DNA from: Minisyncoccota bacterium
GTDB lineage: Bacteria > Patescibacteriota > Minisyncoccia > Phycocordibacterales > UBA9973
Assembly (NCBI GenBank): GCA_041664285.1
Contig: JBAYLA010000001.1
Span: 227-64,226 of the forward strand
Direction of reading: 5' to 3'
DNA length: 64,000 nt
The stretch's first letter is position 1. Each line of letters opens with the position of its first letter. This document shows positions 23,983 to 43,655 of the stretch, in pieces. Both the position numbers and the translations under genes were made by a program. The notes beneath the pieces were generated by a model that was not told the origin of the DNA, did not search any database, and saw only the letters and a program-made list of their open reading frames with translations.

Positions 23983-24069
23983 CGGAGAGAGAGGGATTCG
24001 AACCCTCGGTCCTTTTAAGGGGACGACAGTTTAGTAAACTGTTGGTTTAAGCCACTCACCCATCTCTCC
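23983..24069 (-). tRNA. type-II (long variable arm) tRNA, Ser-like, with anomalous anticodon loop TTACTAA (ACU)
   Basis: 87 nt. Acceptor GGAGAGA/TCTCTCC. D-stem GGT/ACC. Anticodon stem ACAGT/ACTGT. 18-nt variable arm with GTCC/GGAC stem. T-arm GAGGG-TTCGAAT-CCCTC. Discriminator G73. Confidence 0.55.
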
Positions 24070-24152: not shown

Positions 24153-24241
24153 GGAGCCGTGTCAGAGTGGTCTAACGTACCTCTTTGCTAAAGAGGCAGG
24201 GGCTTCAAAACCCCTCGGCGGTTCGAATCCGCCCGGCTCCG
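24153..24241 (+). tRNA. tRNA-Ser (anticodon GCT)
   Basis: Acceptor GGAGCCG/CGGCTCC. Anticodon stem CCTCT/AGAGG with loop TTGCTAA. Long variable arm. T-arm GGTTCGAATCC. Discriminator G. Confidence 0.8.
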
Positions 24242-24265
24242 CACGAATTATGTTATAGTATTTTT

Positions 24266-30913: not shown

Positions 30914-32041
30914 ATGGACAATCCATTAAAAAATCTTATTTCAGGTTTTAGTAAATTTGTAGGGGGGTCGAAAGATTCCGCCATCGGTGTTGATATTGGT
31001 TCGAGCTCAATTAAGATAGTTGAAATAAAAAAAAAGGGCAATAGAGCCGTACTTGAAACTTATGGTGTAATAGCGCTTGGTCCGTATGCTGACCTTGAGG
31101 CTGGACGGGTCACTAGTCTGCCTGTTGAAAAAATTATATTAGCCTTAAAAGAAGTTCTTAAGCAATCTGACGCCACTAGTGACTCTTTGGCTTTTTCTAT
31201 TCCAGTTCAATCAAGTTTAATTTTTACCATTGAGCTTCCTGCTAAAATAGAAGCAGAGAAAATGGCTACCATTGTCCCCATTGAAGCTCGTAAATATATT
31301 CCAGTTCCTATCACTGAAGTTTCAATTGATTATTTTATCATACCTAAAAAAGAAGCTTCTTTTGAAGAAATGAACACTGAAGATGTTCCAGTAAAAGAAG
31401 AAGAAAAAATAAATGTTTTAGTTGTCACAACCCAAAATGATGCAGTAGCTAGATATCGTTCAATTGTTTCAGGGTGTAATCTTTCAGCTTCCTTTTTTGA
31501 AATTGAAATTTTTTCTTCTATTCGAGCAAATTTTGAACATGAGCTTTCTCCAGTTTTGTTGATTGATTTTGGTGCGTCGTGCACTAAGCTTTCGGTGGTT
31601 GAATTTGGCATGGTTAAGAGTTATCACACCATAGAAAGAGGAGGGGCTGATATATCTAATTCTATTTCTAAATCTCTTTCTATTTCTTTTTCTGAAGCAG
31701 AAAAAATGAAAAAAGAATTTGGTCTTTTTGGAAATCCATTAGAAAAAAGTTTAGCTGATATTATTAAAGTTCATGTTGATTATATTTTTTCTGAAACGAA
31801 TAATGTATTATTAGGATATGAAAAGAAAAATAATCAAACTATTAATAAAATCATATTTACGGGTGGCGGGTCTCTTTTAAAAGGGTTAAAAGAAGTGGCT
31901 GTAAATGATTTTCAAGCCGAAATAGAAATTGGTCATCCTTTTTCTAAGATTGGTGCGCCAGCATTTTTAGAAAAAGTTCTTTTGACGATTGGTCCTGAAT
32001 TTGCAGTTGCCTTAGGTTTAGCATTGCGCAAATTACAGTAA
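30914..32041 (+). CDS. pilM: type IV pilus assembly protein PilM (actin-like ATPase)
   Basis: GVDIGSSSIKIVEI phosphate-1 motif. 375 aa. Confidence 0.8.
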   Translation: MDNPLKNLISGFSKFVGGSKDSAIGVDIGSSSIKIVEIKKKGNRAVLETYGVIALGPYADLEAGRVTSLPVEKIILALKEVLKQSDATSDSLAFSIPVQSSLIFTIELPAKIEAEKMATIVPIEARKYIPVPITEVSIDYFIIPKKEASFEEMNTEDVPVKEEEKINVLVVTTQNDAVARYRSIVSGCNLSASFFEIEIFSSIRANFEHELSPVLLIDFGASCTKLSVVEFGMVKSYHTIERGGADISNSISKSLSISFSEAEKMKKEFGLFGNPLEKSLADIIKVHVDYIFSETNNVLLGYEKKNNQTINKIIFTGGGSLLKGLKEVAVNDFQAEIEIGHPFSKIGAPAFLEKVLLTIGPEFAVALGLALRKLQ

Positions 32042-32671
32042 GTGCGATATAATAGAATAAAGACAATGGAACAAAATTTTCAAACGTCATTTATACCTAA
32101 AAAACCGATGCTCAAAGAAGAGAGTACTACTTATGCTCGTCCTGTTAATTTTTTTCTTATCATATCTATTTTTGTTTTAGTTACTATATTGGTTGCCACT
32201 GGTGGACTCTATTTTTATAAAGGAATAGTAGAAAAAAAGATTACTAAACTGGACAGTACTTTAAATTTAGCTAAAAATCGTTTTGAGCCTTCAAAAATAA
32301 CTGAGCTTCAAAAGTTAGATAAGCGCTTGCGTGCTTCAAATGAAATTTTAACTCAACATACCACAGTCGTTCCAATTTTTAAGGCTCTGGAACAAATTAC
32401 TATGAAAAGTGTTCGTTTTACTAAATTTAGTTATGATTTAAGCACCGATAAAGATAATAAGACTTTAATAAACATAAAAATGTCTGGAGTTGCGATTGGC
32501 TATCGTTCTGTTGCTTTGCAATCTGATTTATTTACTAAAAATAAAAATTTACTTGATCCTGTTTTTTCTAATTTAGTGTTGGACAATAGTGGTAATGTTA
32601 TTTTTGATTTAGATTTTTCAGTTAATCCAAGTTTTATTAATTATAAACAAACATTAATGGCTCAAAGTTAA
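32042..32671 (+). CDS. PilN-like bitopic pilus assembly protein
   Basis: Single N-terminal TM helix, coiled coil, ~200 aa, positioned after pilM. Confidence 0.5.
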   Translation: MRYNRIKTMEQNFQTSFIPKKPMLKEESTTYARPVNFFLIISIFVLVTILVATGGLYFYKGIVEKKITKLDSTLNLAKNRFEPSKITELQKLDKRLRASNEILTQHTTVVPIFKALEQITMKSVRFTKFSYDLSTDKDNKTLINIKMSGVAIGYRSVALQSDLFTKNKNLLDPVFSNLVLDNSGNVIFDLDFSVNPSFINYKQTLMAQS

Positions 32672-32675
32672 ATTT

Positions 32676-33269
32676 ATGATGAGATTTATAATGCCCCTTT
32701 TTTTGATAGGAATCGCTGTTGCTCTGTTTTTTCTTTTTACCAATCCTATCTATAATGAAATTTCGGAATTAAATTTAAACGTGGCATCATACAATGGTGC
32801 GCTTGATAATTCTAAAATGTTTGAAAACAAACGTGATAAATTAACTGCCCAATATAATGCAATTGATCCTGATAATTTAACAAAATTACAAAAACTTTTA
32901 CCTGAAAATGTTGATAATGTTCGTTTAATTTTAGAGATAGGACAAATAGCATTACCTTATGGAATGGTTTTGAAAGATGTAAAATATAACGCAATTCGGG
33001 CAGATACCACTAAAGAAAATGTTGTCCAAGGTGGGGCGGTTGCAACACCTAAAGATTATGGAATTTTTGATTTGGAATTTTCCACAGCAGGAACTTACGA
33101 TAATTTTATTAATTTTACCAAAGATCTTGAGAGTAATCTTAGAATTGTAGATATTTCATCAATTGTATTTTCATCTAATACCGGGAATATTGACAATAAT
33201 CCAAAAGTAAATTCTACCGAAGTTTATAAATATAATTTTAAAATTAAAACTTATTGGTTAAAAAATTAA
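32676..33269 (+). CDS. PilO-like bitopic pilus assembly protein
   Basis: Single TM helix followed by a coiled coil. Position in the locus. Confidence 0.45.
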   Translation: MMRFIMPLFLIGIAVALFFLFTNPIYNEISELNLNVASYNGALDNSKMFENKRDKLTAQYNAIDPDNLTKLQKLLPENVDNVRLILEIGQIALPYGMVLKDVKYNAIRADTTKENVVQGGAVATPKDYGIFDLEFSTAGTYDNFINFTKDLESNLRIVDISSIVFSSNTGNIDNNPKVNSTEVYKYNFKIKTYWLKN

Positions 33270-33270
33270 A

Positions 33271-33705
33271 ATGCCTAAAATTAAAAACATCATTATATTT
33301 TCAATAATCGCTATAGCTTTTATTTTAATCTATGTTTTTTTTCCAAAATCATCTCCACCAGAGGCTAATTTAGTTTCATCAGGAACAGGTGTTACCTTAC
33401 CAAACATGGACGGTTCCACCAATGAAGCAAGTATTAAAAATACAAATTCTTTAATTGCAAAAGATTTTCTTTCAATATTTTCTAATATTCAAAATATAAA
33501 ATTAGATGACGCTATTTTCTCTGACGGAGCTTTTAATAGTTTGCATGATTCTAGTATTGTACTTACCCCAGATGGTACTGAAGGTAGACCAAATCCATTT
33601 GCTCAATTTGGAAATGATGCTGTTGTGTCAACTACACAAACTACACCACCAGACATAACCACATCTACTAAATCCACTACACTTAATCCTTCCACTCCCG
33701 ACTAA
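33271..33705 (+). CDS. small bitopic protein with Thr/Pro-rich tail (PilP-like position)
   Basis: One TM helix and a TTQTTPPDITTSTKSTT tail. Confidence 0.3.
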   Translation: MPKIKNIIIFSIIAIAFILIYVFFPKSSPPEANLVSSGTGVTLPNMDGSTNEASIKNTNSLIAKDFLSIFSNIQNIKLDDAIFSDGAFNSLHDSSIVLTPDGTEGRPNPFAQFGNDAVVSTTQTTPPDITTSTKSTTLNPSTPD

Positions 33706-33832
33706 ACTCCAGGATGATTCCGTTAAGCCGCAGTCACAGTTTTGATAAAAAATATGTATATAAAAAATATGAAATTTAATAATATAACAAAGCATGGTTA
33801 CGGCATACTAACCGTGACCTGCTTCTAACGGG

Positions 33833-35575
33833 ATGAGTTTTTTAGAAGAATTATCTAAAAAAGGCTTAATCAATGAAAGCCAAATAGGTGAAATCAAGAG
33901 TCGTGCCCAAAAAGAACACGAGGGAGATGTGGAAAAAACACTCCTTGATTTAGGTATTCCAGAAAAAATAATTCTTGAAATGAAAGGAGAATATTTAAAT
34001 ATACCAGTAAAAAGTGTAAGTTCAGCAGAAATCTCTTTTGAAGTATTGAAATATATTTCAGAAGATTCAGCTGCACATTATCACTTTGTACCAATTAAAT
34101 TAAGAGATGGGGTATTAGAAGTTGGAATGATAGATCCAGAAAATATTCAGGCGATGGACGCGTTACAATTTATTTCTACCAAGCTTGGTGTTCCTTTTAA
34201 AATCTTTCTTATTTCTAAAAGTGACTATGAGAGTATTATGCAAAGTTATAAAGGGCTAGGAAGTCAAGTTGAAAAAGCTTTGGATGAGTTAAATCAAGAG
34301 GAAACAGATGAGAACAAACTTTTAAATGAAGAGAATTTAAATAAAGAGATTAAAAATATAAAAGGAGATACTGAAACAAAGATTGTAGAGGATGCTCCAG
34401 TTATAAAAATTGTAGCGGTTATCTTAAGTAATGCAATAGAAGGAAATGCTTCAGATATACATATTGAATATACAGGCGAAAAAGTTAAAGTACGTTTTCG
34501 AATTGATGGAATTCTTCATACTACGATAGTATTACCGCCGAATGTTTATAGTGGGGTTGTTGCTCGTATAAAAATTCTTTCTAAATTAAGACTGGATGAG
34601 AAACGTAAGCCTCAGGACGGGTCTTTTAGTACAAATGTTGATGGTCGTAAAATTGATTTTCGTGTTTCTACCATGCCAGCATATTATGGTGAAAAAGTTG
34701 TTATGCGTATTTTAGATTCTGAAAAAGGAGTGAAGCCATTAGACCAATTGGGTTTATCAGAAATAAATTTAAAGATAATAAAAGAAGCAATTGAGAAACC
34801 ATATGGACTTATTTTAATTACTGGTCCGACGGGGTCTGGAAAATCGACCACTCTGTATTCAATGATGAATGCACTTGATAAAGAAAAAAGTAATATTGTA
34901 TCCTTGGAAGATCCAGTGGAGTATCATATGCCAGAGATTAATCAATCACAAATGATGCCAGAGATTGGTTATACATTTGCATCAGGGCTTCGTTCAATTC
35001 TTCGTCAAGATCCTGACATTATTATGGTTGGCGAGATCCGCGATAAAGAAACAGCTCAACTTGCAATTCAAGCCGCTCTAACTGGACATTTGGTGCTTTC
35101 GACTCTTCATACCAATAGTGCCATTGGTGCAGTTCCTCGTTTAGTTGACATGGGAGTTGATCCGTATTTAATTGCTCCGACCTTGATTGTTTCTATTGCT
35201 CAACGTTTGGCTCGAATGACTTACCCAACTTCACGCAAAGAGATGCCTATAAGCGAAAGTGTTAAAAAGCAAATAGAAGAACAGATAAAAGATTTACCAG
35301 ATGAATTCAAACCAAATATTGGTGATAAAATGTACGATACAGTGCCATCCCCTGAATGTCCTTCTGGTACAAGGGGACGTATTGCTGTTTTTGAAATGTT
35401 CAAAATTGACAAGGAAATGCAAGAGGTAATCTTGAAAAGTCCTACCGAGGCAGCCATTTATAAATTAGCTCGTAGTAAAGGAATGTTAATGATGAGAGAA
35501 GACGCAATGCTTAAATCTCTTCAAGGCATAATTCCTTTCACTGAAGTGTATAATTTTAGTAATAACAATGAATAG
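33833..35575 (+). CDS. pilB: type IV pilus assembly ATPase PilB (GspE family)
   Basis: N-terminal GSPII_E_N domain. Walker A ILITGPTGSGKSTT. Asp/His boxes. Tetracysteine zinc motif (CPSGTRGR). Confidence 0.9.
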   Translation: MSFLEELSKKGLINESQIGEIKSRAQKEHEGDVEKTLLDLGIPEKIILEMKGEYLNIPVKSVSSAEISFEVLKYISEDSAAHYHFVPIKLRDGVLEVGMIDPENIQAMDALQFISTKLGVPFKIFLISKSDYESIMQSYKGLGSQVEKALDELNQEETDENKLLNEENLNKEIKNIKGDTETKIVEDAPVIKIVAVILSNAIEGNASDIHIEYTGEKVKVRFRIDGILHTTIVLPPNVYSGVVARIKILSKLRLDEKRKPQDGSFSTNVDGRKIDFRVSTMPAYYGEKVVMRILDSEKGVKPLDQLGLSEINLKIIKEAIEKPYGLILITGPTGSGKSTTLYSMMNALDKEKSNIVSLEDPVEYHMPEINQSQMMPEIGYTFASGLRSILRQDPDIIMVGEIRDKETAQLAIQAALTGHLVLSTLHTNSAIGAVPRLVDMGVDPYLIAPTLIVSIAQRLARMTYPTSRKEMPISESVKKQIEEQIKDLPDEFKPNIGDKMYDTVPSPECPSGTRGRIAVFEMFKIDKEMQEVILKSPTEAAIYKLARSKGMLMMREDAMLKSLQGIIPFTEVYNFSNNNE

Positions 35576-35655
35576 ATCCATACGCCTTTTGTTTTGTTAG
35601 AACAAAAGGCGTATGGATAGAGTTGCATTATATTTTATGGTATAATTAAAACATT

Positions 35656-36051
35656 ATGGAAAACAAAAAAAGAAAAATTTTAATAACCGATGATGATAGT
35701 TTTCTTTTGGACATGTATGCGCTTAAATTTAGCCAGAATAATTTTGAAGTTTACACAGCAAGTGGTGGAATTCATGCATTAGAAAAACTTAAAGACGGGC
35801 TATCTCCTGATGTCCTTTTGGTTGACATAATTATGCCCGAGATGGATGGTTTTGAAGTTTTAACACAAATAAATACACAAAAGTTATGTCCAAATTGTGT
35901 AAAAATAATTTTATCTAACAAAAGTGAACAACAAGACATAGATAAAGGTAATAAACTAGGGGTAGCAGGGTATATTGTGAAAGCCAATTTTACTCCAGCA
36001 GAAGTTATTGAAGAGGTAATAAAGATTTTGGAAAAAAACCATGGATTATAA
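35656..36051 (+). CDS. stand-alone CheY-like response-regulator receiver domain
   Basis: ILITDDDSFLLD ... VDIIMPEMDGFEVL with the phospho-acceptor Asp context. 131 aa. Overlaps pilT by 11 nt. Confidence 0.8.
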   Translation: MENKKRKILITDDDSFLLDMYALKFSQNNFEVYTASGGIHALEKLKDGLSPDVLLVDIIMPEMDGFEVLTQINTQKLCPNCVKIILSNKSEQQDIDKGNKLGVAGYIVKANFTPAEVIEEVIKILEKNHGL

Positions 36052-37099
36052 AAACGAACTTGAAAATTTTATTTTAAATCTTATCCATGAAAATGGTTCA
36101 GATTTACATTTGGGAGCCGGACGCAGACCAGCTATTCGAGTAGCCGGAGAACTTATATTTTTAGCTAAGTATCCAGTTTTAACTCAAGAAGATTTATGGA
36201 TTTTTTTGGGTGAAATTTTAGAAAAAGAAAAAATTGAAAAATTTAAAGAAAATCAAGAAGCTGATTTTTCTTATGATTTTCGTGGAGAAGCTCGACTTCG
36301 TGGTAATGCTTTCTTCCAAAAAGGTTTAGTTAATATAGTTTTTCGATTAGTCCCTAAGGTTCAAACATTGGAGCAATTACGCTTACCTCCCATTTTAGCG
36401 GACCTTGCTCGTAAAAAACAAGGTTTTTTTCTAGTGGTGGGTCCTGTTGGGCAAGGGAAATCAACTACTTTATCGGCTATGGTTGATTTAATAAACAATG
36501 AACAAGCGCGTCATATAGTAACTATTGAAGATCCAATTGAGCATGTTTATGTGGCTAATAAATCTATAATTAATCAACGTGAAGTAGGTATTGACACTAA
36601 AGATTTTCACGTGGCTTTGAAAGAAGTTTTTCGTGAAGATGTGAATGTAATTATGGTTGGCGAGATGCGTACTCCAGAAACTATCGCAACTGCGGTAACT
36701 GCAGCCGAGACGGGGCACCTTGTGTTGTCAACTCTTCATACTAACAATGCTTCTCAGACTATCGATAGAATTATAGATTCTTTTCCAGGAAATCAACAAG
36801 ATCAAATTCGTGCCCAGCTTGCAGCTTCTTTGCTTGGTATTTTTTCCCAAAGGCTTGTTCCTAGAATTACGGGCGGACTTATTCCAGCTTATGAACTTCT
36901 TTTAAATAATAATGCGGTGGCTAATTTAATTCGTGAAAAACGTACACATGAGATAGACGTTGTTATTGAAACAGGAACGGAATCTGGGATGATTGATTTA
37001 AACCACTCATTAATGGAGCTTGTGAGGACTGGAGAAATTTCTATTGAGAATGCTCAAGAGTACTCACTTAACCCAAAAGGGCTTGAACGCCTTATTTAG
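36041..37099 (+). CDS. pilT: twitching-motility retraction ATPase PilT
   Basis: Walker A FLVVGPVGQGKSTT. 352 aa and no N-terminal extension, as expected for PilT. Confidence 0.85.
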   Translation: MDYKNELENFILNLIHENGSDLHLGAGRRPAIRVAGELIFLAKYPVLTQEDLWIFLGEILEKEKIEKFKENQEADFSYDFRGEARLRGNAFFQKGLVNIVFRLVPKVQTLEQLRLPPILADLARKKQGFFLVVGPVGQGKSTTLSAMVDLINNEQARHIVTIEDPIEHVYVANKSIINQREVGIDTKDFHVALKEVFREDVNVIMVGEMRTPETIATAVTAAETGHLVLSTLHTNNASQTIDRIIDSFPGNQQDQIRAQLAASLLGIFSQRLVPRITGGLIPAYELLLNNNAVANLIREKRTHEIDVVIETGTESGMIDLNHSLMELVRTGEISIENAQEYSLNPKGLERLI

Positions 37100-37102
37100 T
37101 TT

Positions 37103-38311
37103 ATGTTATTTAAATATAAAGCAATAAATGATACTGGTGTAAATAAAGAAGGAGAAATTGATGCACCCAATCGTGATATGGCAATTAGTGGACTTCAGAG
37201 ACGAGGATTGGTTGTTATTTCTATTGTAGAAGAAGGAGAAACTAAGTCATTTTTGAAAATTTCTTTTTTTGAAAGAGTAAAGACGAAAGACGTAGTGATT
37301 CTTTCTCGTCAGATTGCAACTTTATTCGAAGCACAAGTTTCTGCCCTGAAAGCTTTTACTATGTTGGCTACCAATACAGAAAACAAACTTCTTGGGCGTA
37401 AACTTGCTCAGATTAGTGATGATCTTCAAGCAGGAGTTTCTATTTCTGGAGCTCTTTCTCATCACCCAGATGTATTTTCAGATTTTTATGTAAATATGGT
37501 AAAGGTAGGTGAAGAAACAGGTAAACTTAATCAAACCTTTTTACATTTGGCAGATTATTTAGATCGTCAATACTCCATTACTTCTAAAACTAAAAATGCA
37601 CTTATTTACCCAGCTTTTGTTGTCCTTACTTTTTTTGTCGTGATGACATTGATGTTTGTGGTTGTTATTCCAAAGCTTGCAGCAATTATTTTAGATTCTA
37701 ATCAAGAAGCTCCCTTTTTTACTAAATTAGTAATTGGAGTTTCAAATTTATTTGTTCATTATGGTTTTTTTGCTTTGATCTTTTTTATATTTTTAGGAAT
37801 TTGGGTTTGGAGATTATCTCTTACTGTAAAAGGGAAAGCATATCTTGATGAATTAAAACTTTCCGTACCAGGTGTTGGTAATTTATATAAAAAGCTTTAT
37901 TTTTCTAGAATAACAGATAACTTAAGTGTTATGCTTAGTTCTGGAATTCCTATTGTTCGGGCAATAGACATTACCTCGGAAGTTGTTGGGTCTTTGATCT
38001 ATAAAGATATTTTGGTAGATGTGGCAGATGGAGTGAAATCAGGATTATCTCTCTCGGCGGCATTTGGAAAGCATGACGACAAAGTACCTAATATTTTGAT
38101 ACAGATGATACAAGTAGGTGAAGAAACGGGTTCTCTTGGAAATATTTTGAAAACTCTAACTGATTTTTATAGACGCGAAGTAGATGATGCTGTTGATACA
38201 TTGGTTGGTTTAATAGAGCCTATTATGATTGTAGTTTTGGGATTAGGAGTAGGAATATTGCTCGTTTCTGTGTTGATGCCAATTTATAATATGGCAGGAA
38301 GTATAAGTTAA
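37103..38311 (+). CDS. pilC: type IV pilus platform protein PilC (GspF family)
   Basis: Two GspF repeats with a conserved VGEETG in each half. 402 aa. Confidence 0.85.
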   Translation: MLFKYKAINDTGVNKEGEIDAPNRDMAISGLQRRGLVVISIVEEGETKSFLKISFFERVKTKDVVILSRQIATLFEAQVSALKAFTMLATNTENKLLGRKLAQISDDLQAGVSISGALSHHPDVFSDFYVNMVKVGEETGKLNQTFLHLADYLDRQYSITSKTKNALIYPAFVVLTFFVVMTLMFVVVIPKLAAIILDSNQEAPFFTKLVIGVSNLFVHYGFFALIFFIFLGIWVWRLSLTVKGKAYLDELKLSVPGVGNLYKKLYFSRITDNLSVMLSSGIPIVRAIDITSEVVGSLIYKDILVDVADGVKSGLSLSAAFGKHDDKVPNILIQMIQVGEETGSLGNILKTLTDFYRREVDDAVDTLVGLIEPIMIVVLGLGVGILLVSVLMPIYNMAGSIS

Positions 38312-38420
38312 AATGGGTGTGGATAACTTAATTGCATATATATTATTATTGATATGATATAATATGTATATTAAAAATGAGTCGAGGTTTGTTAGTTATT
38401 ATTATTAAATAATTTTTATT

Positions 38421-38861
38421 ATGAAGAATTTAAAGAAAGGTTTTACATTAATTGAATTACTGGTGGTTGTAGCCATCATTGGTATTTTAGCGTCAGTTGT
38501 GCTTGCGTCGCTGAACACTGCACGTGCAAAAGGTGCTAATGCAGCAGTTAAGGCGAACATGTCTGGCATTCGGGCAGCAGCAGAATTATCTTATGATACT
38601 GGTAGTACATATGCAGGAGTTTGTGCAGCTGTTGCTTCTTCTCTTGCGGCTGCGGATTCTGCTGGAGGAGGTGCCACCTCTGCTGTTGGGGCGGGCAATA
38701 CGTGTATTAACAGTGCAACCGTTTGGGCTGCAGCGGCTGGTCTTAAATCAACTGATGGTACATCAACAGCTTGGTGTGTTGATTCAACCGGTAAATCTGT
38801 TGGTATAACAACTGCTCAATTTAGTGCGATAAGTCTCACTGGTCCTGTATTGTGTCCTTAA
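38421..38861 (+). CDS. type IV pilin (prepilin, class III signal peptide)
   Basis: KKG|FTLIELLVVVAIIGILA matches the prepilin consensus (G-F-T-L-I-E). Ala/Gly-rich and GC-rich body with a C-terminal Cys pair. Confidence 0.8.
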   Translation: MKNLKKGFTLIELLVVVAIIGILASVVLASLNTARAKGANAAVKANMSGIRAAAELSYDTGSTYAGVCAAVASSLAAADSAGGGATSAVGAGNTCINSATVWAAAAGLKSTDGTSTAWCVDSTGKSVGITTAQFSAISLTGPVLCP

Positions 38862-38887
38862 GATAAAAAGACGAAGAAGTTTTTTAA

Positions 38888-38926
38888 AAAACCACCCTTT
38901 AGGAATTTTCTCAGGGTGGTTTTTGT
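38888..38926 (+). terminator. intrinsic terminator after first pilin gene
   Basis: ACCACCCT (38891-38898) pairs with AGGGTGGT (38913-38920), followed by TTTTT. Confidence 0.6.
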
Positions 38927-38990
38927 ATTTTGATAATGATATAATAAGTTATATAAAAAGGTCCTTTTATTATTTATTGTTTATTATTTT

Positions 38991-39530
38991 ATGAAAGATT
39001 TTAAAGGAAATTTAGTTAAGAGGAATATAAAAGGTTTCACATTGATAGAACTTTTAATTGTTGTAGCTATCATTGGTATTTTAACTGCTGTAGTGTTCGT
39101 TTCAGTTAGTTCATCTCGTGCAAAAGGTGGTGATGGAGCTGTTAAATCTAACTTAAATACAATAAAAGGTGCGTCTGAGATTTTTTATGCCAACAATAAT
39201 TTTTCTTTTGGTTCTGCTCTTGCTATTACTGTTCCTTGTCCTACTTATCTATCAACTTCTACCAATATGTTTCAAAAAGATAAAACGATAGCTGACGCTA
39301 TAGCTGAAGCAGTTAAAAGAGGTGGTGGTGCAAGTGTTTGCTATAATTCAAATAATGTTTGGGCTGTTGCTGTACAACTAAAGACTAGTGATGGTGCTAC
39401 AAATGTTGCTGGGACAACTGGTCTATTACCAGATTCATGGTGTGTAGATAGTGGAGGAGTCAGTAAGTCGTATACATGGGCCAACGGTCAAACAATTGCC
39501 GATTCTATTAATATTTCTTTTTGCAGATAA
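38991..39530 (+). CDS. second type IV pilin paralog
   Basis: KG|FTLIELLIVVAIIGIL prepilin N-terminus. C-terminal disulfide-loop Cys residues. Confidence 0.75.
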   Translation: MKDFKGNLVKRNIKGFTLIELLIVVAIIGILTAVVFVSVSSSRAKGGDGAVKSNLNTIKGASEIFYANNNFSFGSALAITVPCPTYLSTSTNMFQKDKTIADAIAEAVKRGGGASVCYNSNNVWAVAVQLKTSDGATNVAGTTGLLPDSWCVDSGGVSKSYTWANGQTIADSINISFCR

Positions 39531-39543
39531 TTTTTAAAGAATT

Positions 39544-40338
39544 ATGATATTTATTATTACTTCAATTTTCTTTATTTTTGGTCTGGTTATTGGAAGTTTT
39601 TTGAATGTTGTTATTTTTCGGTTGAATACCCAGAGATCTTTTGGCGGGAGGAGCGGATGTATGTCTTGTCAGAATAAACTTACTTGGCTAGAGCTTATAC
39701 CCGTTTTTAGTTTTTTGGGGTTAAGAGGAAGATGTAAAAATTGTAAAACTAAAATTTCACTTCAGTATCCATTGGTAGAGCTTATCACTGGTTTGATTTT
39801 TGCTCTTTTGTTTTTAAAATTCCAAAATATATTTTTTTTAAATACACTTCTTTTTACTTTTAATTATATATATTATGCTACCATTTTTTCTCTTCTCTTG
39901 ATAATTGCTGTTTATGATTTAAAACATAAAATAATTCCAGATATTCTGTCTCTTGTTTTTGGTATTTTAGCTTTTGCGGGTTTATTTCTTACGCAGATAG
40001 ATTTTTCTATTATTTTCTCTGTATTTTATTTTCCTACCCTCTTAGAATTTTTGTCTGGTCCAATTATCGCCATTCCTTTTGCTTTTCTTTGGTTAGTATC
40101 TTCTGGAAAATGGATGGGGCTAGGGGATGCAAAATTGGCAATTGGGTTAGGATATTTTCTTGGCCTTCGTCTTATGTTTTCTGCTCTTGTATTAGCTTTT
40201 TGGATCGGAGCTATTGTCGGTCTTTTATTAATTATTTTTTCTAATAAAAAATATGGGTTGAAAAGTGAAATTCCCTTTGCTCCATATTTGGTTTTGGGTA
40301 CATCATTAGTATTTCTTTTTGGTTGGTATCTTTTTTAA
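39544..40338 (+). CDS. pilD: prepilin peptidase PilD (A24 family)
   Basis: Cytoplasmic zinc-finger Cys pairs (CMSCQNKL ... CKNCKTKI). Polytopic membrane protein with the catalytic Asp region. Confidence 0.8.
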   Translation: MIFIITSIFFIFGLVIGSFLNVVIFRLNTQRSFGGRSGCMSCQNKLTWLELIPVFSFLGLRGRCKNCKTKISLQYPLVELITGLIFALLFLKFQNIFFLNTLLFTFNYIYYATIFSLLLIIAVYDLKHKIIPDILSLVFGILAFAGLFLTQIDFSIIFSVFYFPTLLEFLSGPIIAIPFAFLWLVSSGKWMGLGDAKLAIGLGYFLGLRLMFSALVLAFWIGAIVGLLLIIFSNKKYGLKSEIPFAPYLVLGTSLVFLFGWYLF

Positions 40339-40985
40339 TGAAAAAATTAATTAAAAGTAAAAAAAACAGAGGAATGACTTATGTGGAGCTTATTGTTGTT
40401 CTTGGTATTTTTGCTGTTTTATCTTCTGTTTCTATTTTTAATTATGGAGCTTTTCAAGACAAGGTTGATATAAAAAGTATGGCCAATGATATCGCATTGA
40501 AATTTGTTGAAGCGCAAAGATCATCTCTAAATGGTGTTTTGCCTAATGTTACTTATTTAGATACTTGGACACCAGGTTATGGAGTTTATTTCAATTTAAC
40601 TACAGACCCTACAGCTCTTGATGCTGATGATATAGCTTTCAATAAAAAATTTGTTTATTTTGTAGATCTTGATAATAATTACGAATATTTTGGCACTACT
40701 CCAAATTGCACAGTAATGGAATGTTTAGATAAAATTATTATCACTAAAAATAATTTTATAGCTAACATTGAAAAATGCGACGACGCTGATTGCAACACTC
40801 TACCCAAACAATCGATTACCTCTATTGCTACAGCTTTTATGCGACCGGATTCAGGAGCTCATTTTACTAGCAATCCACCTTATGACTTCTCTGGTTCTAG
40901 TTATGTTAAAATTACTATTGAATCGCCTAAAGGATTACAAGCTTTTATAAAATTATATCCTTCAGGTAGAGTACAGATAGATTAA
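40323..40985 (+). CDS. minor pilin / pseudopilin
   Basis: RG|MTYVELIVVLGIFAVL prepilin-type N-terminus. 220 aa. Confidence 0.6.
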   Translation: MVSFLMKKLIKSKKNRGMTYVELIVVLGIFAVLSSVSIFNYGAFQDKVDIKSMANDIALKFVEAQRSSLNGVLPNVTYLDTWTPGYGVYFNLTTDPTALDADDIAFNKKFVYFVDLDNNYEYFGTTPNCTVMECLDKIIITKNNFIANIEKCDDADCNTLPKQSITSIATAFMRPDSGAHFTSNPPYDFSGSSYVKITIESPKGLQAFIKLYPSGRVQID

Positions 40986-41007
40986 GTAGTTATAAAGTTG
41001 TAAAAAA

Positions 41008-41643
41008 ATGAAATTATTTTTTAAAAAAATAATTAATAAGAATAATAAAGGCCGAAAGGCCCTGGTCGAAATGAGGGGATACACTCTCATTGAGACGATG
41101 ATAGCTGTTGCTCTTTTTTTAATTGTTATAACAACAGGCCTTGGAGCGTTACTGAGTGCCAATTCACTTCAAAAAAAATCACAAGATATGCGTTCCATTC
41201 TAGATAACTTAAACTTTGCTATGGAAGATATGTCTAGAAATATAAGAACAGGATATAATTTTGTTTGTATTGTTGGGGGGAGTCCTCTTCCATCTGATGT
41301 TAGTACGCCCAATAATTTTCATAATTGTGGGGGAATTGCATTTGAATCTGGAACTGGCAGGATTTCTGACCCTCTTGATCAATGGGTTTATTACATAAGT
41401 AACAATAGAATTTTTAAAACAACCAAAAGTCCTTATGATGATTCTAGTAATTATATTCAATTAACTCCCGATGAAATAAACATTGATGCAGCGTCCGGTT
41501 TTGTAGTAACAGGGGCTGAGCCAGGTGATGGGAAACAACCTTTTATTACCATCAAGTTGGTTGGGACAATAACTACTCCTCAAGGTGTCAGTACTCCTTT
41601 TTATTTACAAACTTCCGTGTCTCAAAGAATTATGGATATGTAA
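41008..41643 (+). CDS. minor pilin / pseudopilin
   Basis: RG|YTLIETMIAVALFLIV prepilin-type N-terminus. Confidence 0.6.
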   Translation: MKLFFKKIINKNNKGRKALVEMRGYTLIETMIAVALFLIVITTGLGALLSANSLQKKSQDMRSILDNLNFAMEDMSRNIRTGYNFVCIVGGSPLPSDVSTPNNFHNCGGIAFESGTGRISDPLDQWVYYISNNRIFKTTKSPYDDSSNYIQLTPDEINIDAASGFVVTGAEPGDGKQPFITIKLVGTITTPQGVSTPFYLQTSVSQRIMDM

Positions 41644-41646
41644 TTT

Positions 41647-42096
41647 ATGATGAAGAAAAATAATAAATTAAATAAAGGGTTTACATTAGTAGAAACACTT
41701 GTAGCTATTTCAATTTTTACTATGTCAATTTTAGGGTTAATGTCAATTTTGGCGTCATCTATTTCCGACATTAATTATGCTAAACAGAAAATAGCAGCTT
41801 CATATTTAGCGCAAGAAGGAATTGAATATGTTAGAAATTTGAGAGATACTGCAATAATTTCTTCGGTGGATGGAACTGGTTGGACAACCTTTAAGGCTCT
41901 TTTGCCCCCTTCGTCCGATTCTTCTTTTTATCCTCCTGATGGTTCAACATTTCCTAATTTTACAAGAACCATAAGTGTTGATACAACTTTTGGGCCAGAT
42001 GAAATAAAAATTACTTCAGATGTTAGTTGGACGCAGGGTTCTGGCGATAAACATATAATTTTTTCAGAAAATTTATATAATTGGACAGAAGAATAG
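41647..42096 (+). CDS. minor pilin / pseudopilin
   Basis: KG|FTLVETLVAISIF prepilin-type N-terminus. Confidence 0.6.
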   Translation: MMKKNNKLNKGFTLVETLVAISIFTMSILGLMSILASSISDINYAKQKIAASYLAQEGIEYVRNLRDTAIISSVDGTGWTTFKALLPPSSDSSFYPPDGSTFPNFTRTISVDTTFGPDEIKITSDVSWTQGSGDKHIIFSENLYNWTEE

Positions 42097-42097: not shown

Positions 42098-43603
42098 ATG
42101 ATAAATATAATAAGAAAATTTAATATTTTAAAAAGAGAATTTATTCAATGCCTAAAACGCAAGTCTTCTAGTTCGGGGTTCGTATTACTTTTTGCAGTTA
42201 CTATTTCAGCGATTATTTTATCAATAACCTTAGGTCTAACTAATATTGCTTTTAACGAAATTAAATTTAGTACTTCTGTTAAAGATAGTAATAATGCTTT
42301 TTATGCCGCTGACACAGGTTACGAATGTGCACTTTTTAATGACAAATCTGCCACCAGCGCCTTCGATCCTACCAATCCTACTTCCCCCTTATCAATAACT
42401 TGTAACAAAAGTAGTTCTATTACTGTAAATAAAGATATAATGTCCCCGATTTGGAATTTTAATATGAATGGATTAGGTATTGGAGGACAAAGTTGTGCTC
42501 AAGTAACTGTCGATAAACATACTTCGCTATTTTCTATTACTTCAAAGGGATATAACATTAGTGATTGTAGTTTAATAAGCGCAGGACGAGTTGAAAGAGA
42601 GTTAAAAATTAATTATAGTGGTTCTTCTTCTTTTACTTGTTCTAATTTACCTGCTCATGCAACGTTTTGCGAGTATGATTTGGATAACGATATACTAACC
42701 CCTCCTTCTTTGGTTCCTTCCTGTACTTTGCCTACCCTTCCAAATGTATGTGAAGCAATGTGCGATTCAGGCTACACAATAAGCGGAAGTGGAGAAGATT
42801 GTGTGGAAACAGCACCACCAATTCCTCTTATTACTGCTAGTGGCGGAACAATAACCTATGCTGATTCTAGTGGCGCAACATCTCCAGTTCAGGTTTCTGG
42901 TGGATATAAGATTCATACGTTTACTTCGGCTACACCTGTAAAAAAATTCATTGTTAATAGTGGTAGTGGCACTGTTGATGTTTTGGTTGTTGGAGGAGGT
43001 GGTGGTGGAGCTGGAGATGGAGCAAGTTGGGAACATTGTATGGGTTCTGGCGGTGCAGGGGGATATAGATATCAGACTAATTTTCCTATAGACCCACAAG
43101 AATATCAGGTTAAGGTTGGTACTGGTGGTAGCGCTGGTCCGGCAGGTAATCCAGCCGGAAATACTGTGGGAAACGGCGGAGATTCTGCTTTTAGTACAAT
43201 TACATCTACTGGAGGTGGTGCAGGAAAACAAACAGAAGCTGGAAAGAGTGGTGGTTCTGGTGGGGGTGCAGGAGCATGGGGGGGGTCACGCACGGGAGGG
43301 GCTGCTTCTGCTGGACAAGGAAACGCAGGAGGTTCTTCTAAACAATGCGCATCTTCTGGTTGTGGAAGTCATAGTGGCGGAGGTGGAGGGTCGGCTTCTG
43401 TTGGAGGATCTGAAAACGGAATAGGGGGCAATGGAACGGTTAATAGTATATCAGGATCATCAATAACTTATGCTGCCGGTGGTTCTCATGGTGGTGGAAA
43501 TGCCGTTGCTAATACTGGAAATGGTGGTGGTGGTGGTTTACAATCTTCAGCTGGCGGTTCTGGTGGTTCGGGTATTGTAATAATTAGATATCTAACTCCG
43601 TAA
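42098..43603 (+). CDS. large PilX-like minor pilin with Cys-rich middle and extreme Gly-rich C-terminal domain
   Basis: The N-terminal hydrophobic segment GFVLLFAVTISAIILSITLGL is PilX_N-like. The last ~230 aa are Gly/Ser/Ala repeats (GGGGGAGDG ... GSGGSGGGAGAWGG ...) in a GC-rich block. Confidence 0.5.
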   Translation: MINIIRKFNILKREFIQCLKRKSSSSGFVLLFAVTISAIILSITLGLTNIAFNEIKFSTSVKDSNNAFYAADTGYECALFNDKSATSAFDPTNPTSPLSITCNKSSSITVNKDIMSPIWNFNMNGLGIGGQSCAQVTVDKHTSLFSITSKGYNISDCSLISAGRVERELKINYSGSSSFTCSNLPAHATFCEYDLDNDILTPPSLVPSCTLPTLPNVCEAMCDSGYTISGSGEDCVETAPPIPLITASGGTITYADSSGATSPVQVSGGYKIHTFTSATPVKKFIVNSGSGTVDVLVVGGGGGGAGDGASWEHCMGSGGAGGYRYQTNFPIDPQEYQVKVGTGGSAGPAGNPAGNTVGNGGDSAFSTITSTGGGAGKQTEAGKSGGSGGGAGAWGGSRTGGAASAGQGNAGGSSKQCASSGCGSHSGGGGGSASVGGSENGIGGNGTVNSISGSSITYAAGGSHGGGNAVANTGNGGGGGLQSSAGGSGGSGIVIIRYLTP

Positions 43604-43621
43604 CAATAAAATAAAAACAAA

Positions 43622-43655
43622 AAAAACCACTTATAGGCAAGGTGGTTTTTTTGTT
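43622..43655 (+). terminator. intrinsic terminator ending the pilus operon
   Basis: AAACCAC-ttataggca-AGGTGGTTTTTTTG. Confidence 0.5.

What the first reader, a model, noticed from the sequence alone, without database searches (positions are those of the whole stretch)
42098..43603. 501-aa PilX-like minor pilin with Cys-rich adhesin-like core and ~230-aa polyglycine/Ser C-terminus
After a PilX-type N-terminal helix the protein has a Cys-containing middle domain (CNKSS ... CAQV ... CSLISAG ... CSNLPAHATFCEYD ... CTLPTLPNVCEAMCDSGYTISGSGEDC), then a Gly/Ser/Ala low-complexity region (runs such as GGGGGAGDG, GSGGGAGAWGG, GGGGGSASVGG). Gly codons make this region a GC-rich island that produces several spurious antisense ORFs. 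It is a likely pilus-tip adhesin with a flexible Gly-rich tail. That arrangement is atypical for minor pilins and could mediate host-cell attachment in an episymbiont.
Basis: seen in the sequence. Interest (0 to 1): 0.55.

Follow-up and report, generated by a model that had tools for sequence, protein, structure and literature searches.

The report
Pilus-tip pilin carrying phage-type binding domain
The last gene of a type IV pilus operon in an uncultivated ultrasmall (Paceibacterota) bacterium encodes a three-part pilus-tip protein whose glycine-rich end is not a floppy tail but a folded domain of the kind phages use on their tail fibres to recognise host cells.

Summary
Its parts need re-labelling. 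(1) Residues 1-176 are a PilX/GspK-class minor pilin module: the leader ends in Gly, and Phe replaces Glu at +5. Stand-alone proteins of about 150 aa with this module occupy the same operon slot in related genomes. (2) Residues 181-235 are a single copy of a six-cysteine, roughly 52-aa repeat that forms tandem arrays in other surface proteins. It is a spacer, not an "adhesin core". (3) Residues ~243-501 are a Pfam Gly_rich_2 domain (PF21722, E 7e-18). The model is confident here (pLDDT 88-98), and its closest solved relatives are the receptor-binding tip of the cyanophage Pam3 tail fibre and a Bxb1 tail-tip protein. The glycine motifs are conserved, and the loops between them are hypervariable. 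The gene closes a complete T4P operon, directly after the prepilin peptidase gene and three minor pilin genes, and this synteny holds in four relatives. Most likely this is a modular tip pilin that presents a phage-type receptor-binding head. The "flexible tail" reading is rejected. Adhesin function is inferred, not shown. It is a new variant of the known "modular pilin" kind and is of moderate interest.

The parts
42098..42178 (+). Leader peptide, aa 1-27 (MINIIRKFNILKREFIQCLKRKSSSSG), basic and ending in Gly27. It is the putative prepilin-peptidase site, G|FVLLFAV.
   Evidence: Read from the sequence. Gly27 is at least 90% conserved and Phe32 (+5) is invariant in the family. The long 'MINII.K' leader is shared with P0004 and P0006. 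Cleavage has not been tested.
42179..42625 (+). PilX/GspK-class pilin module, aa 28-176. It has a long hydrophobic N-terminal helix followed by an antiparallel beta-sheet, and four Cys (77, 102, 133, 157). It has no Glu at +5.
   Evidence: The AF2 model has mean pLDDT 85.9, with a helix at 26-83 and six strands. There are 105 homologues, nearly all stand-alone proteins of 140-200 aa from Patescibacteria, and some are named PilX by JGI. PilX_N matched 17 of 42 family members. C133 and C157 are invariant.
42638..42802 (+). Single six-cysteine repeat unit, aa 181-235 (C-x9-C-x17-C-x8-C-x3-C-x2-GY-x8-C). It is Sushi/CCP-like only in a loose sense and is a probable rigid spacer.
   Evidence: An exhaustive phmmer search found 11 other proteins that carry 3-12 copies of the unit. 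The query unit aligns with 19 repeat units with all six Cys, the 'P-x-x-A-T', 'LV.S-C' and 'C-[DN]-x-G-Y' motifs in register. Family members give marginal Sushi (PF00084) hits, but the query gives none. AF2 pLDDT is below 50 here because the alignment lacked homologues for this unit.
42824..43600 (+). Gly_rich_2 module, aa ~243-501. A beta-sandwich base carries about 6-7 glycine-rich hairpins. The Pfam match covers aa 284-498 (nt 42947-43591). Variable loop tips lie at aa 306-316, 345-358, 377-383, 392-400, 413-426, 438-443, 464-471 and 481-487.
   Evidence: PF21722 E 7.1e-18, 65.9 bits. pLDDT is 88-98. Foldseek against the PDB gives 7ypx_A (Pam3 fibre) at E 9.2e-6, 7yfw_a at 3.3e-4 and 9d93_Qb (Bxb1 tail tip) at 3.5e-4. 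There are 183 BFVD matches at E<=1e-3. It matches PHROG 2295 at E 9e-42. Scaffold positions are 50-62% identical to relatives and tip positions 13-30%.
43620..43652 (+). Terminator-like hairpin 17 nt after the stop codon. It marks this gene as the last of the pilus operon.
   Evidence: A 13-pair stem followed by a T-run. This is a consensus match only.
40323..42096 (+). Three upstream minor pilin genes (40323-40985, 41008-41643, 41647-42096). Each has a canonical G|(M/Y/F)T..E motif. They are the presumed partners in a four-pilin tip complex.
   Evidence: N_methyl hits, with weak GspH, ComGE, GspJ, GspI and PilV NCBIfam hits. The N-terminal sequences are shown. The stop codon of the third gene ends 1 nt before the ATG of the gene studied.
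30914..40338 (+). The rest of the T4P operon: PilM (30914-32041), two ORFs with no family match (32042-32671 and 33271-33705) flanking PilO (32676-33269), PilB (33833-35575), a response regulator (35656-36051), PilT (36041-37099), PilC (37103-38311), two pilins (38421-38861, 38991-39530) and prepilin peptidase PilD (39544-40338).
   Evidence: Pfam hits. The same gene order is seen in relatives L001, L003, L004, L006 and L007.
42767..43424 (.). Spurious ORFs produced by the Gly-codon-rich stretch: 42767-43231 (-), 43105-43293 (-) and 43116-43424 (+, other frame).
   Evidence: Their translations are low-complexity sequences rich in Pro, Ala, Ser and Thr, or in Val, Leu and Glu, as expected when GGN-rich sequence is read in other frames. 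They lie entirely within the conserved coding region.

Best explanation
The gene encodes a three-module type IV pilus minor pilin of the PilX/GspK class. Module 1 (aa 28-176) is the pilin anchor. Its hydrophobic N-terminal helix inserts into the filament core. Like GspK and PilX, it lacks the Glu5 that every other pilin in the operon has, which is the hallmark of the subunit that caps the filament. It would therefore sit at the very tip, together with the three minor pilins encoded just upstream, and would prime assembly. Module 2 (aa 181-235) is one disulfide-locked six-Cys repeat unit that acts as a short rigid spacer. Module 3 (aa ~243-501) is a Gly_rich_2 domain, a beta-sandwich from which glycine-rich hairpins pack side by side into a lattice. 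This is the architecture solved in the receptor-binding tip of the cyanophage Pam3 tail fibre, and that study compares it with the phage S16 gp38 adhesin. The conserved glycine motifs build the scaffold, and the hypervariable hairpin tips form the ligand-binding face. Pilus extension would present this head to a target surface, presumably the envelope of the host cell of this episymbiont-type bacterium, and retraction by PilT would pull the cells together. What is shown: the module boundaries, their homologies, the predicted fold, the operon position, the conserved synteny, and the contrast between scaffold and tip conservation. What is inferred: PilD cleavage, tip location, the polyglycine-II conformation, adhesin function and the identity of the ligand.
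For: Gly_rich_2: Pfam E 7e-18 over profile positions 8-225 of 226. The homologue profile gives 186.5 bits against at most -17.9 for 300 shuffles. pLDDT is 88-98. The best PDB fold matches are the Pam3 fibre gp24 and the Bxb1 tail tip. [quoted passage not shown] The same pattern is seen here, with scaffold identity of 50-62% and tip identity of 13-30% plus indel hot spots.

Pilin module: Gly at -1 is at least 90% conserved and Phe at +5 is invariant. All five other pilins of the operon have Glu at +5. The model shows a 58-residue helix plus a beta-sheet at pLDDT 85.9. PilX_N matched 17 of 42 family members.

Context: this is the last gene of a complete T4P operon, 1 nt after the third minor pilin gene and followed by a terminator-like hairpin. 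The order PilD, 3-4 minor pilins, this gene, ligA is conserved in L001, L003 and L004. L005, which starts at a contig end, preserves only the last two minor pilins, this gene and ligA. Stand-alone PilX-like proteins of about 150 aa fill the identical slot in L006 and L007.

Modularity: at this locus the region between anchor and head varies among relatives. It is absent in some and is a PA14 domain, an InlB-B-repeat domain or a four-Cys module in others. In P0002 the Gly_rich_2 domain is inserted before the last strand of the pilin domain. In L005 the second minor pilin also carries a Gly_rich_2 domain. Two canonical GFTxxE pilins carry one as well.

Precedent: modular pilins act as tip adhesins (PMC8179133). 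In Saccharibacteria, PilX1 and PilX2 have C-terminal accessory domains, and PilX2 is needed for efficient host binding (PMC11623550).
Against: There is no experimental evidence for any step. The query itself falls below the Pfam PilX_N threshold, at 12.9 bits against 25.5, and has no N_methyl hit. Foldseek of the pilin-module model found no significant PDB match. The best E-value was 0.05, and the S. sanguinis minor pilin PilA came in at 0.42. The full-length model matched an XcpGHIJK pseudopilus chain only at E 1.6. In phage Pam3 the domain works within a trimeric fibre, whereas here it would be a single copy, although S16 gp38 is described as a single adhesin tip protein. Many relatives manage with a bare 150-aa PilX-like protein, so the head is an accessory and not essential for pilus biogenesis. 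The host organism and the ligand are unknown.
Confidence: 0.6

Rival explanations
1. One reading: the C-terminal ~230 aa are an intrinsically disordered, flexible Gly/Ser low-complexity tail appended to a Cys-rich adhesin core.
For: The composition is 30-34% Gly and 14% Ser. DSSP assigns little regular secondary structure within the Gly segments.
Against: There is a position-specific match to PF21722 across the whole profile. Non-Gly anchor residues are conserved, and the terminal strand 'GSGIVIIRY' is invariant. pLDDT is 88-98. The fold matches solved phage structures. Domain length is constrained among relatives. There are no significant DNA-level tandem repeats. Shuffled sequences score below zero.
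Confidence: 0.03
2. A cell-surface adhesin that is never built into the pilus. The N-terminal hydrophobic helix would serve as an uncleaved signal-anchor that holds the protein in the membrane, and the spacer and Gly_rich_2 head would project from the cell body. Operon membership would then reflect co-regulation only.
For: There is no Glu5 and no N_methyl hit. [quoted passage not shown] The leader is unusually long at 27 aa.
Against: Gly at -1 is conserved and is followed by an invariant hydrophobic stretch typical of PilX and GspK. The predicted fold is a full pilin fold, not a bare TM helix. The slot directly after three minor pilins is conserved across distant relatives. Lack of Glu5 is expected for the capping pilin, from established knowledge of the GspK-GspI-GspJ complex. 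With one spacer unit, the head would barely clear a cell wall.
Confidence: 0.15
3. A tip pilin whose Gly_rich_2 head has a job other than adhesion. It could be a bulky cap that controls assembly, retraction or passage through the cell wall, or a decoy or shield against pilus-specific phages.
For: The core minor pilins prime assembly in other systems (PMC11623550 discussion). Function of the head has not been tested. Many relatives lack it altogether.
Against: The solved relatives of this fold are distal tail-fibre or tail-tip proteins of phages. The Pam3 authors assign receptor recognition to their domain, and glycine-rich 'brush' domains are described as candidate antireceptors. The pattern of a conserved scaffold with hypervariable, indel-rich loop tips is what is expected of a specificity surface, not of a steric cap. 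The companion modules found at the same locus in relatives, PA14 and InlB B-repeat, are surface or ligand-binding types.
Confidence: 0.15
4. A DNA receptor at the pilus tip for natural transformation or nucleotide scavenging, analogous to modular DNA-binding pilins such as ComZ.
For: Patescibacteria are naturally competent and depend on uptake (PMC10187176 abstract). The minor pilins give weak ComG-type hits. Modular pilins include DNA binders (PMC8179133).
Against: The Gly_rich_2 module is close to neutral, with 10 K+R against 9 D+E and pI 8.2. The spacer is acidic, with pI 4.05. No relative of the fold is known to bind DNA.
Confidence: 0.04
5. A phage-derived tail-fibre gene or an assembly chimera, accidentally joined to a pilin gene.
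For: The fold is abundant in viruses, with 183 BFVD matches. It matches PHROG 2295.
Against: GC3 is 0.18 against 0.21 in the two halves. The identical protein is recorded from several independent sources (ncbi, jgi, lgn, ena), with a longest contig of 203 kb. Of the 100 nearest homologues, 16 besides the query share the fusion. Synteny within T4P operons is conserved. There are no phage genes around it.
Confidence: 0.02

Closest known systems
Modular type IV pilins (S. sanguinis PilB with a vWA module and PilC with a lectin module; concept of Raynaud et al. 2021, PMC8179133)
   Same: An N-terminal pilin module has a functional module grafted on that is not specific to T4P, for display by the filament. 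The protein is a minor pilin encoded in the pilus locus and is expected at the tip.
   Different: The carrier here is a PilX/GspK-class pilin without Glu5 and without an N_methyl signature, so the InterPro IPR012902-based survey in that paper would not have picked it up. The cargo is Gly_rich_2, which is not among the modules named in the passages of that paper read here (its full dataset was not checked). A six-Cys spacer lies between carrier and cargo.
Saccharibacteria (TM7x) PilX1 and PilX2 (PMC11623550)
   Same: These are Patescibacteria minor pilins named PilX and are the largest pilins in their loci. They carry C-terminal accessory domains and have no canonical PilD signal prediction. 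PilX2 is needed for efficient host binding.
   Different: Their cargo domains are a beta-jelly-roll and a seven-bladed RCC1 beta-propeller, not Gly_rich_2. Sequence homology to the present protein was not tested here. The lineage also differs (Paceibacterota against Saccharibacteria).
Cyanophage Pam3 tail fibre gp24 (PDB 7YPX and 7YFW; PMC9608196), and S16 gp38 by way of that paper's comparison
   Same: This is the best solved fold match (E 9e-6, TM 0.54 normalised to the target). A beta-sandwich gives rise to Gly-rich hairpins (GGGGxGG-type motifs) that stack into a lattice, with a conserved stem and hypervariable distal tips. The authors assign host-receptor recognition to it.
   Different: gp24 is a homotrimeric phage fibre joined by an N-terminal helical bundle and folded with a dedicated chaperone, gp25. 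Here the domain is a single copy on a pilin, and no chaperone gene is evident. Sequence identity is only 23%. The domain here is larger, with a core of about 200 aa against 125.
Glycine-rich 'brush' domains of siphophage tail tips (Bxb1 9D93; described in PMC13243795, citing Cambillau & Goulet 2023 and Freeman et al. 2025)
   Same: There is a Foldseek match to 9d93_Qb at E 3.5e-4. These are glycine-rich fingers displayed at the distal end of an attachment organelle and are presumed to contact the cell envelope.
   Different: They are phage tail components. Their function as antireceptors is itself presumed. The primary papers could not be read here.
GspK / PilX core minor (pseudo)pilins
   Same: Each is the fourth minor pilin of a four-gene set, lacks Glu5 and is larger than its partners because of an added domain. 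The proposed position is at the very tip.
   Different: GspK's extra domain is an alpha-domain inserted in the beta-sheet. No significant sequence or fold match to GspK or PilX structures was obtained. The PilX_N match is below threshold for the query.
Tapirins of Caldicellulosiruptor (NCBIfam NF051896)
   Same: Six of 42 members of the N-domain family give weak hits to the tapirin model, with a best E of 2.7e-4. From my own knowledge, tapirins are adhesins encoded next to a T4P locus.
   Different: The hits are weak and the query itself does not match. The tapirin binding domain is, from memory, a beta-helix and not Gly_rich_2. This is a lead only.

Membership tests
Pfam PF21722 Gly_rich_2 | Score above the curated gathering threshold (24.3 bits) with near-full profile coverage | tested here: met
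   65.9 bits, E 7.1e-18, aa 284-498 against profile positions 8-225 of 226. All 11 family members match.
Pfam PF21722 Gly_rich_2 | The signal is not explained by Gly-rich composition alone | tested here: met
   A profile built without the query scores the real sequence at 186.5 bits, and the best of 300 shuffles at -17.9 bits.
Phage glycine-rich receptor-binding fold (Pam3 gp24 type) | Beta-sandwich base with stacked Gly-rich hairpins, and structural similarity to solved members | tested here: met
   Foldseek gives 7ypx_A at E 9.2e-6 (probability 1.00, TMt 0.54), 7yfw_a at 3.3e-4 and 9d93_Qb at 3.5e-4. The model has 12 short strands plus long non-alpha, non-beta Gly segments at pLDDT 88-98.
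Phage glycine-rich receptor-binding fold (Pam3 gp24 type) | Polyglycine-II / PPII backbone geometry and a hydrogen-bonded lattice | not testable with these tools
   Model coordinates are not exposed, so phi and psi angles could not be measured. The feature is inferred from homology to the solved structure (PMC9608196).
Phage glycine-rich receptor-binding fold (Pam3 gp24 type) | Conserved Gly stem with hypervariable distal loop tips | tested here: met
   Per-column conservation over 100 sequences. Scaffold identity is 50-62% and tip identity 13-30%, with indel hot spots. That these variable segments are the distal ends is inferred.
Phage glycine-rich receptor-binding fold (Pam3 gp24 type) | Binds a cell-surface receptor | not testable with these tools
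   This needs binding experiments.
Type IV pilin (class III signal peptide) | Basic leader ending in Gly, followed by about 20 hydrophobic residues | tested here: met
   ...KRKSSSSG|FVLLFAVTISAIILSITLGL. Gly27 is conserved in at least 90% of members.
Type IV pilin (class III signal peptide) | Glu at +5 and an N_methyl (PF07963 / TIGR02532) signature | tested here: not met
   Phe at +5 is invariant in the family. There is no N_methyl hit at E<=1. This exception is the one known for GspK/PilX-class capping pilins.
Type IV pilin (class III signal peptide) | Pilin fold: an extended alpha-1 helix packed on an antiparallel beta-sheet | tested here: inconclusive
Type IV pilin (class III signal peptide) | Cleavage and N-methylation by the prepilin peptidase | not testable with these tools
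   A PilD gene is present four genes upstream, at 39544-40338. Processing itself needs an experiment.
PilX (Pfam PF14341 PilX_N) / GspK-class fourth minor pilin | PilX_N score above the gathering threshold (25.5 bits) | tested here: not met
   The query scores 12.9 bits, E 0.11, covering only aa 56-76, and nothing when the full-length protein is scanned. At family level, 17 of 42 members match with a best E of 1.3e-5, P0198 has a precomputed PF14341 hit, and two members are named PilX by JGI. Homology is therefore supported transitively, not directly.
PilX (Pfam PF14341 PilX_N) / GspK-class fourth minor pilin | Encoded as the last of a set of minor pilins in a T4P or T2SS locus | tested here: met
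   for the window. The position is conserved in L001, L003, L004, L006 and L007.
Modular pilin (sensu PMC8179133) | [quoted passage not shown] | tested here: met
   The pilin module ends at about aa 176 (the stand-alone homologues end there). Gly_rich_2 also occurs in phage and virus proteins. The HMM of the stand-alone family matches aa 20-183 of the query.
Sushi / CCP (PF00084) | Pfam match above threshold, and the four-Cys CCP pattern | tested here: not met
   The query has no Sushi hit at E<=1. The unit has six Cys, not four. Only some repeat-family members give partial Sushi hits, for example P0233 at 34.9 bits over profile positions 24-51 of 56. This is a resemblance only.

The most novel reading that the evidence does not exclude
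Ultrasmall Paceibacterota bacteria may recognise their host cells with the same kind of hypervariable, glycine-lattice receptor-binding head that phages carry on their tail fibres, mounted on the capping pilin of a retractile type IV pilus. The head is a swappable cassette. At one orthologous locus the region between anchor and head is absent or holds a PA14, B-repeat or Cys-repeat module. The head is sometimes inserted inside the pilin fold, and sometimes sits on a second minor pilin. If this is right, host range in these uncultivated episymbionts would be encoded in the loop tips of this domain and could be read or re-engineered, as is done for phage receptor-binding proteins.
Probability: 0.35. 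Interest if true: 0.65.

Novelty: new variant of a known kind. Interest (0 to 1): 0.45.

Why it matters
How uncultivated Patescibacteria find and hold their hosts is an open question. The only genetic evidence comes from Saccharibacteria, where a PilX-type modular minor pilin contributes to host binding (PMC11623550). This locus shows that in Paceibacterota the equivalent capping pilin is a carrier for interchangeable surface-binding cassettes. One recurrent cassette is a fold so far characterised structurally only in phage host-recognition organelles. That yields a concrete, testable candidate for the host-specificity determinant: aa 243-501, and within it eight variable loop tips. It also gives a sequence handle for surveying it in metagenomes, namely the HMM of the stand-alone PilX-like family combined with PF21722. 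Finally, it corrects a likely annotation trap, because Gly-rich C-termini of this type should not be dismissed as low complexity or disorder. The protein is already deposited and generically named "glycine-rich domain-containing protein", and modular pilins are a known concept, so this is an incremental advance and not a categorical one.

Tried and rejected
The following led nowhere or were set aside.

- A sequence search of the whole protein against the PDB gave only chance-level hits, with E of 0.14 or worse.
- A profile of the N-domain family against the PDB gave no hit at E<=10.
- Foldseek of the N-domain model against the PDB gave nothing significant. The top hits were levivirus coat proteins at E of about 0.05, which I regard as generic sheet-plus-helix similarity.
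- tblastn of the Gly_rich_2 module against 50,697 phage records gave no match, probably because of the low-complexity filter, so it says nothing about presence in phages. BFVD fold search and PHROGs did find viral relatives.
- NCBIfam gave no hit for the query.
- A literature search for 'Gly_rich_2' or 'PF21722' returned no papers. No paper combined 'glycine-rich domain' with pilins or CPR.
- The 2026 preprint on a 'novel pilus system in CPR' concerns an unrelated donor-strand-exchange pilus.
- Two primary papers on mycobacteriophage brush domains were not held.

Ideas considered and rejected:
- A slippage-prone repeat tract or phase variation. Only trivial tandem repeats with scores of 30-37 were found.
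- Recent horizontal acquisition. GC3 is unchanged between the two halves.
- A second copy of either module elsewhere in the window. There is none.
Full report
OBSERVATION. The ORF 42098..43603 (+) encodes 501 aa and starts at an ATG 1 nt after the stop codon of the preceding gene. Cys residues lie at 77, 102, 133, 157, 181, 191, 209, 218, 222 and 235, and three more fall in the C-terminal part. The last ~260 residues are 30% Gly and 14% Ser (34% Gly within the Pfam-matched stretch), and the longest Gly run is six residues. GC climbs to 0.52-0.54 at 43100-43550 against about 0.32 for the surroundings. The rise is confined to codon positions 1 and 2. GC3 is 0.18 in the C-terminal part and 0.21 in the N-terminal part, so it reflects amino-acid composition and not foreign DNA. 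The predicted spurious ORFs exist: two antisense and one in another frame of the same strand. There are no DNA-level tandem repeats of note, with TRF scores of 30-37 only.

WHOSE GENE IT IS. The identical protein is in public databases as [quoted passage not shown], with a longest contig of 203 kb. The window therefore comes from a Patescibacteria/CPR genome.

CONTEXT. The gene is the last of a complete type IV pilus operon. The order is PilM, an ORF with no family match, PilO, another ORF with no family match, PilB, a response regulator, PilT, PilC, two pilins, prepilin peptidase PilD, three minor pilins, and then this gene. A terminator-like hairpin at 43620-43652 follows it, and then comes ligA. 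The five other pilins all carry the canonical G|(F/M/Y)T..E motif with Glu at +5. This protein instead has G27|FVLLF, with Phe at +5.

MODULE 1, aa 1-176. Searching this part alone retrieved 105 homologues. Nearly all are stand-alone proteins of 140-200 aa from Patescibacteria. Two are named "Tfp pilus assembly protein PilX" by JGI, and one carries a precomputed PF14341 hit. In two such genomes the stand-alone protein occupies exactly the same slot, after PilD and three minor pilins and before ligA (L006 and L007). In the 42-sequence family alignment, Gly at -1 is at least 90% conserved, and Phe at +5, Cys133 and Cys157 are invariant. Pfam PilX_N matches 17 of the 42 members, with a best E of 1.3e-5. 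The query reaches only 12.9 bits against a cut-off of 25.5. AlphaFold2 with this alignment gives mean pLDDT 85.9, a single 58-residue N-terminal helix (26-83) and a six-stranded sheet, which is the pilin "lollipop" topology. Foldseek against the PDB found nothing significant, and a profile search of PDB sequences found nothing. I therefore call this module a PilX/GspK-class minor pilin on four grounds: operon position, N-terminal anatomy, topology and transitive family evidence. Strict Pfam membership is not met. Lack of Glu5 is, from established knowledge of the GspK-GspI-GspJ complex, the property of the subunit that caps the filament.

MODULE 2, aa 181-235. This stretch was modelled at pLDDT below 50, and none of the close relatives shares it. 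An exhaustive phmmer search of 1.84 billion representatives with aa 176-243 found 11 other proteins at E<=1e-3. These proteins match in 3 to 12 separate stretches each, so the unit is a repeat. Extracting 19 units from five of these proteins and aligning them with the query puts all six Cys in register, together with the "P-x-x-A-T-x-C", "L-V-x-S-C-T" and "C-E-Y-x-C-[DN]-x-G-Y" motifs. Some of these proteins give partial hits to Sushi/CCP (PF00084). One is a eukaryote-type protein with 27 Sushi repeats, and another (P0229) is itself an N_methyl pilin carrying three units. The query unit has no Sushi hit. It has six Cys, whereas the CCP module has four (from my own knowledge), so "Sushi-like" describes a resemblance and not membership. 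A single disulfide-locked unit between two globular modules is best read as a spacer. At the orthologous position, relatives have nothing (P0002, P0014), a four-Cys module (P0004, P0006, P0009, P0012), a PA14 domain (P0010) or InlB-B-repeat domains (P0015, P0011).

MODULE 3, aa ~243-501. Pfam PF21722 Gly_rich_2 matches at E 7.1e-18, with aa 284-498 covering profile positions 8-225 of 226. The database search returned 626 homologues, and all 120 listed carry this domain. To exclude a composition artefact I built an HMM from 99 homologues without the query. The real sequence scores 186.5 bits, and the best of 300 shuffles scores -17.9. The core, from "VLVVGGGG" to "GIVIIRY", is 203 aa here. Across 89 relatives the median is 215, and most lie between 192 and 237, so the domain has a constrained size and is not an expandable tract. 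AlphaFold2 with 100 sequences models aa 280-500 at pLDDT 88-98. The model has twelve short strands and long segments that are neither alpha nor beta. The best PDB fold matches are the cyanophage Pam3 fibre (7ypx_A, E 9.2e-6, TM 0.54 normalised to the target; 7yfw_a, 3.3e-4) and a chain of the mycobacteriophage Bxb1 tail tip (9d93_Qb, 3.5e-4). The Pam3 paper describes gp24 as a TNF-like beta-sandwich whose strands extend into six Gly-rich loops, giving 12 glycine-rich motifs stacked in a four-layer lattice. [quoted passage not shown] Related "brush" domains at siphophage tail tips are described as candidate antireceptors (PMC13243795). The fold is abundant in viral proteomes, with 183 BFVD matches at E<=1e-3 from tailed phages, an archaeal virus and algal giant viruses. 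The protein also matches PHROG 2295, of unknown function. In the present family the same two-tier pattern holds. Gly motifs and flanking strands are invariant or nearly so, and eight intervening segments are variable and rich in indels. Identity to the ten relatives is 50-62% at scaffold positions and 13-30% in those segments. The region is therefore a folded domain of a type used for host recognition, not a flexible tail.

THE FUSION IS REAL AND RECURRENT. Synteny of PilD, 3-4 minor pilins, PilX-like+Gly_rich_2 and ligA is conserved in three relatives, including a Yanofskybacteria contig (L001, L003, L004). L005, which starts at a contig end, preserves the last two minor pilins, this gene and ligA. 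Of the 100 nearest Gly_rich_2 proteins, 17 (the query included) contain the PilX-like module, and 2 are canonical GFTxxE pilins. In P0002 the Gly_rich_2 domain is inserted before the last beta-strand of the pilin module: the family HMM matches aa 1-139 and then aa 421-439. In the same genome (L005) the homologue of the window's second minor pilin also ends in a poly-Pro linker followed by a Gly_rich_2 domain. The domain thus behaves as a mobile cassette that has been grafted onto tip pilins several times.

MECHANISM (INFERRED). After PilD processing, the protein would nucleate the filament together with the three upstream minor pilins and end up as its cap. The spacer would hold the Gly_rich_2 head clear of the pilin bundle. 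The variable loop tips would bind a surface ligand on a partner cell, and PilT-driven retraction would then draw the cells together. Precedents are the modular pilins of S. sanguinis and the survey showing 264 modular architectures, several of them in CPR (PMC8179133). A further precedent is TM7x, where PilX1 and PilX2 carry C-terminal accessory domains, lack predicted PilD signals, and PilX2 is required for efficient host binding (PMC11623550). The head is near neutral in charge, which argues against DNA as the ligand. None of these steps has been tested.

COMPARISON AND NOVELTY. The thing works like a modular tip pilin, and I file it there. It meets the definition of a pilin module plus a domain not specific to T4P. 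It fails the strict Pfam tests for N_methyl and PilX_N, and I report it as PilX-class by context and transitive homology. The cargo is a bona fide PF21722 member. I found no paper that mentions this Pfam family by name or links glycine-rich domains to pilins or CPR. The protein is already deposited and generically named, and the general principle is known. I rate it a new variant of a known kind, with interest 0.45. The most novel reading still open is that host range in these episymbionts is encoded in phage-style hypervariable loops on a swappable pilus-tip cassette. I give that reading a probability of about 0.35.

Noticed in passing
window 4119-4193 (+): ARAGORN calls a tRNA-Ile with anticodon TAT (UAU). 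From my own knowledge this is uncommon in bacteria, where AUA is usually read by a lysidine-modified CAU tRNA. It would be worth checking whether tilS is absent from this genome.
   Followed up: no
window 23982-24069 (-) and 24153-24242 (+): ARAGORN calls a tRNA-Ser with anticodon ACT on the minus strand, about 85 nt from a tRNA-Ser(GCT) on the plus strand. An A34 anticodon for Ser is odd, so this may be a false call or an unusual tRNA.
   Followed up: no
L005 1-1197 (GCA_043809405.1, JAZDDU010000020.1): In this relative the homologue of the window's second minor pilin (41008-41643) also carries a C-terminal Gly_rich_2 domain after a PPPPPPPP linker. Two of the four tip pilins in that genome therefore display this domain.
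   Followed up: partly
P0002 (L005 1702-3021): The Gly_rich_2 domain is inserted inside the PilX-like pilin fold. The last beta-strand ('..VERELLITY') comes after the domain, at the extreme C-terminus. This shows domain insertion as well as end-to-end fusion.
   Followed up: partly
window 35656-36051 (+): A stand-alone response-regulator receiver gene sits between pilB and pilT. It is conserved in that position in L001, L003, L006 and L007 but absent in L004. It may be a regulator of extension versus retraction.
   Followed up: no
window 42638-42802; P0227, P0228, P0229, P0233, P0236: The six-Cys repeat of about 52 aa (C..P.NAT.C..D..L......LV.SCT...KCEY.C.SGY......C) forms tandem arrays in several uncharacterised surface proteins and in another pilin (P0229). 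It gets only marginal Sushi hits, so it looks like an undescribed bacterial repeat family.
   Followed up: partly
N-domain family (alignment A3): Six of 42 stand-alone PilX-like proteins give weak hits to the NCBIfam 'tapirin' model (NF051896, best E 2.7e-4). This hints that the tapirin adhesins of Caldicellulosiruptor share a PilX-like N-terminus.
   Followed up: no
window 42098-42178: The leader is unusually long at 27 aa. The full-length model gives it a helix at aa 2-20, but confidence is low in the N-domain model (pLDDT 51-54 over aa 1-20). 'MINII.K' is conserved in P0004 and P0006, whereas most relatives have leaders of 10-12 aa.
   Followed up: no
window 38421-38861 (+): A second local GC peak (0.50 at 38450-38750) coincides with the 146-aa gene that is presumably the major pilin. 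Like the Gly-rich island, it is probably compositional.
   Followed up: no
L003 11178-12816: In the relative carrying P0010, an Ice_binding (PF11999) protein and a sortase lie just downstream of ligA. This is another candidate surface-display pair next to the pilus operon.
   Followed up: no
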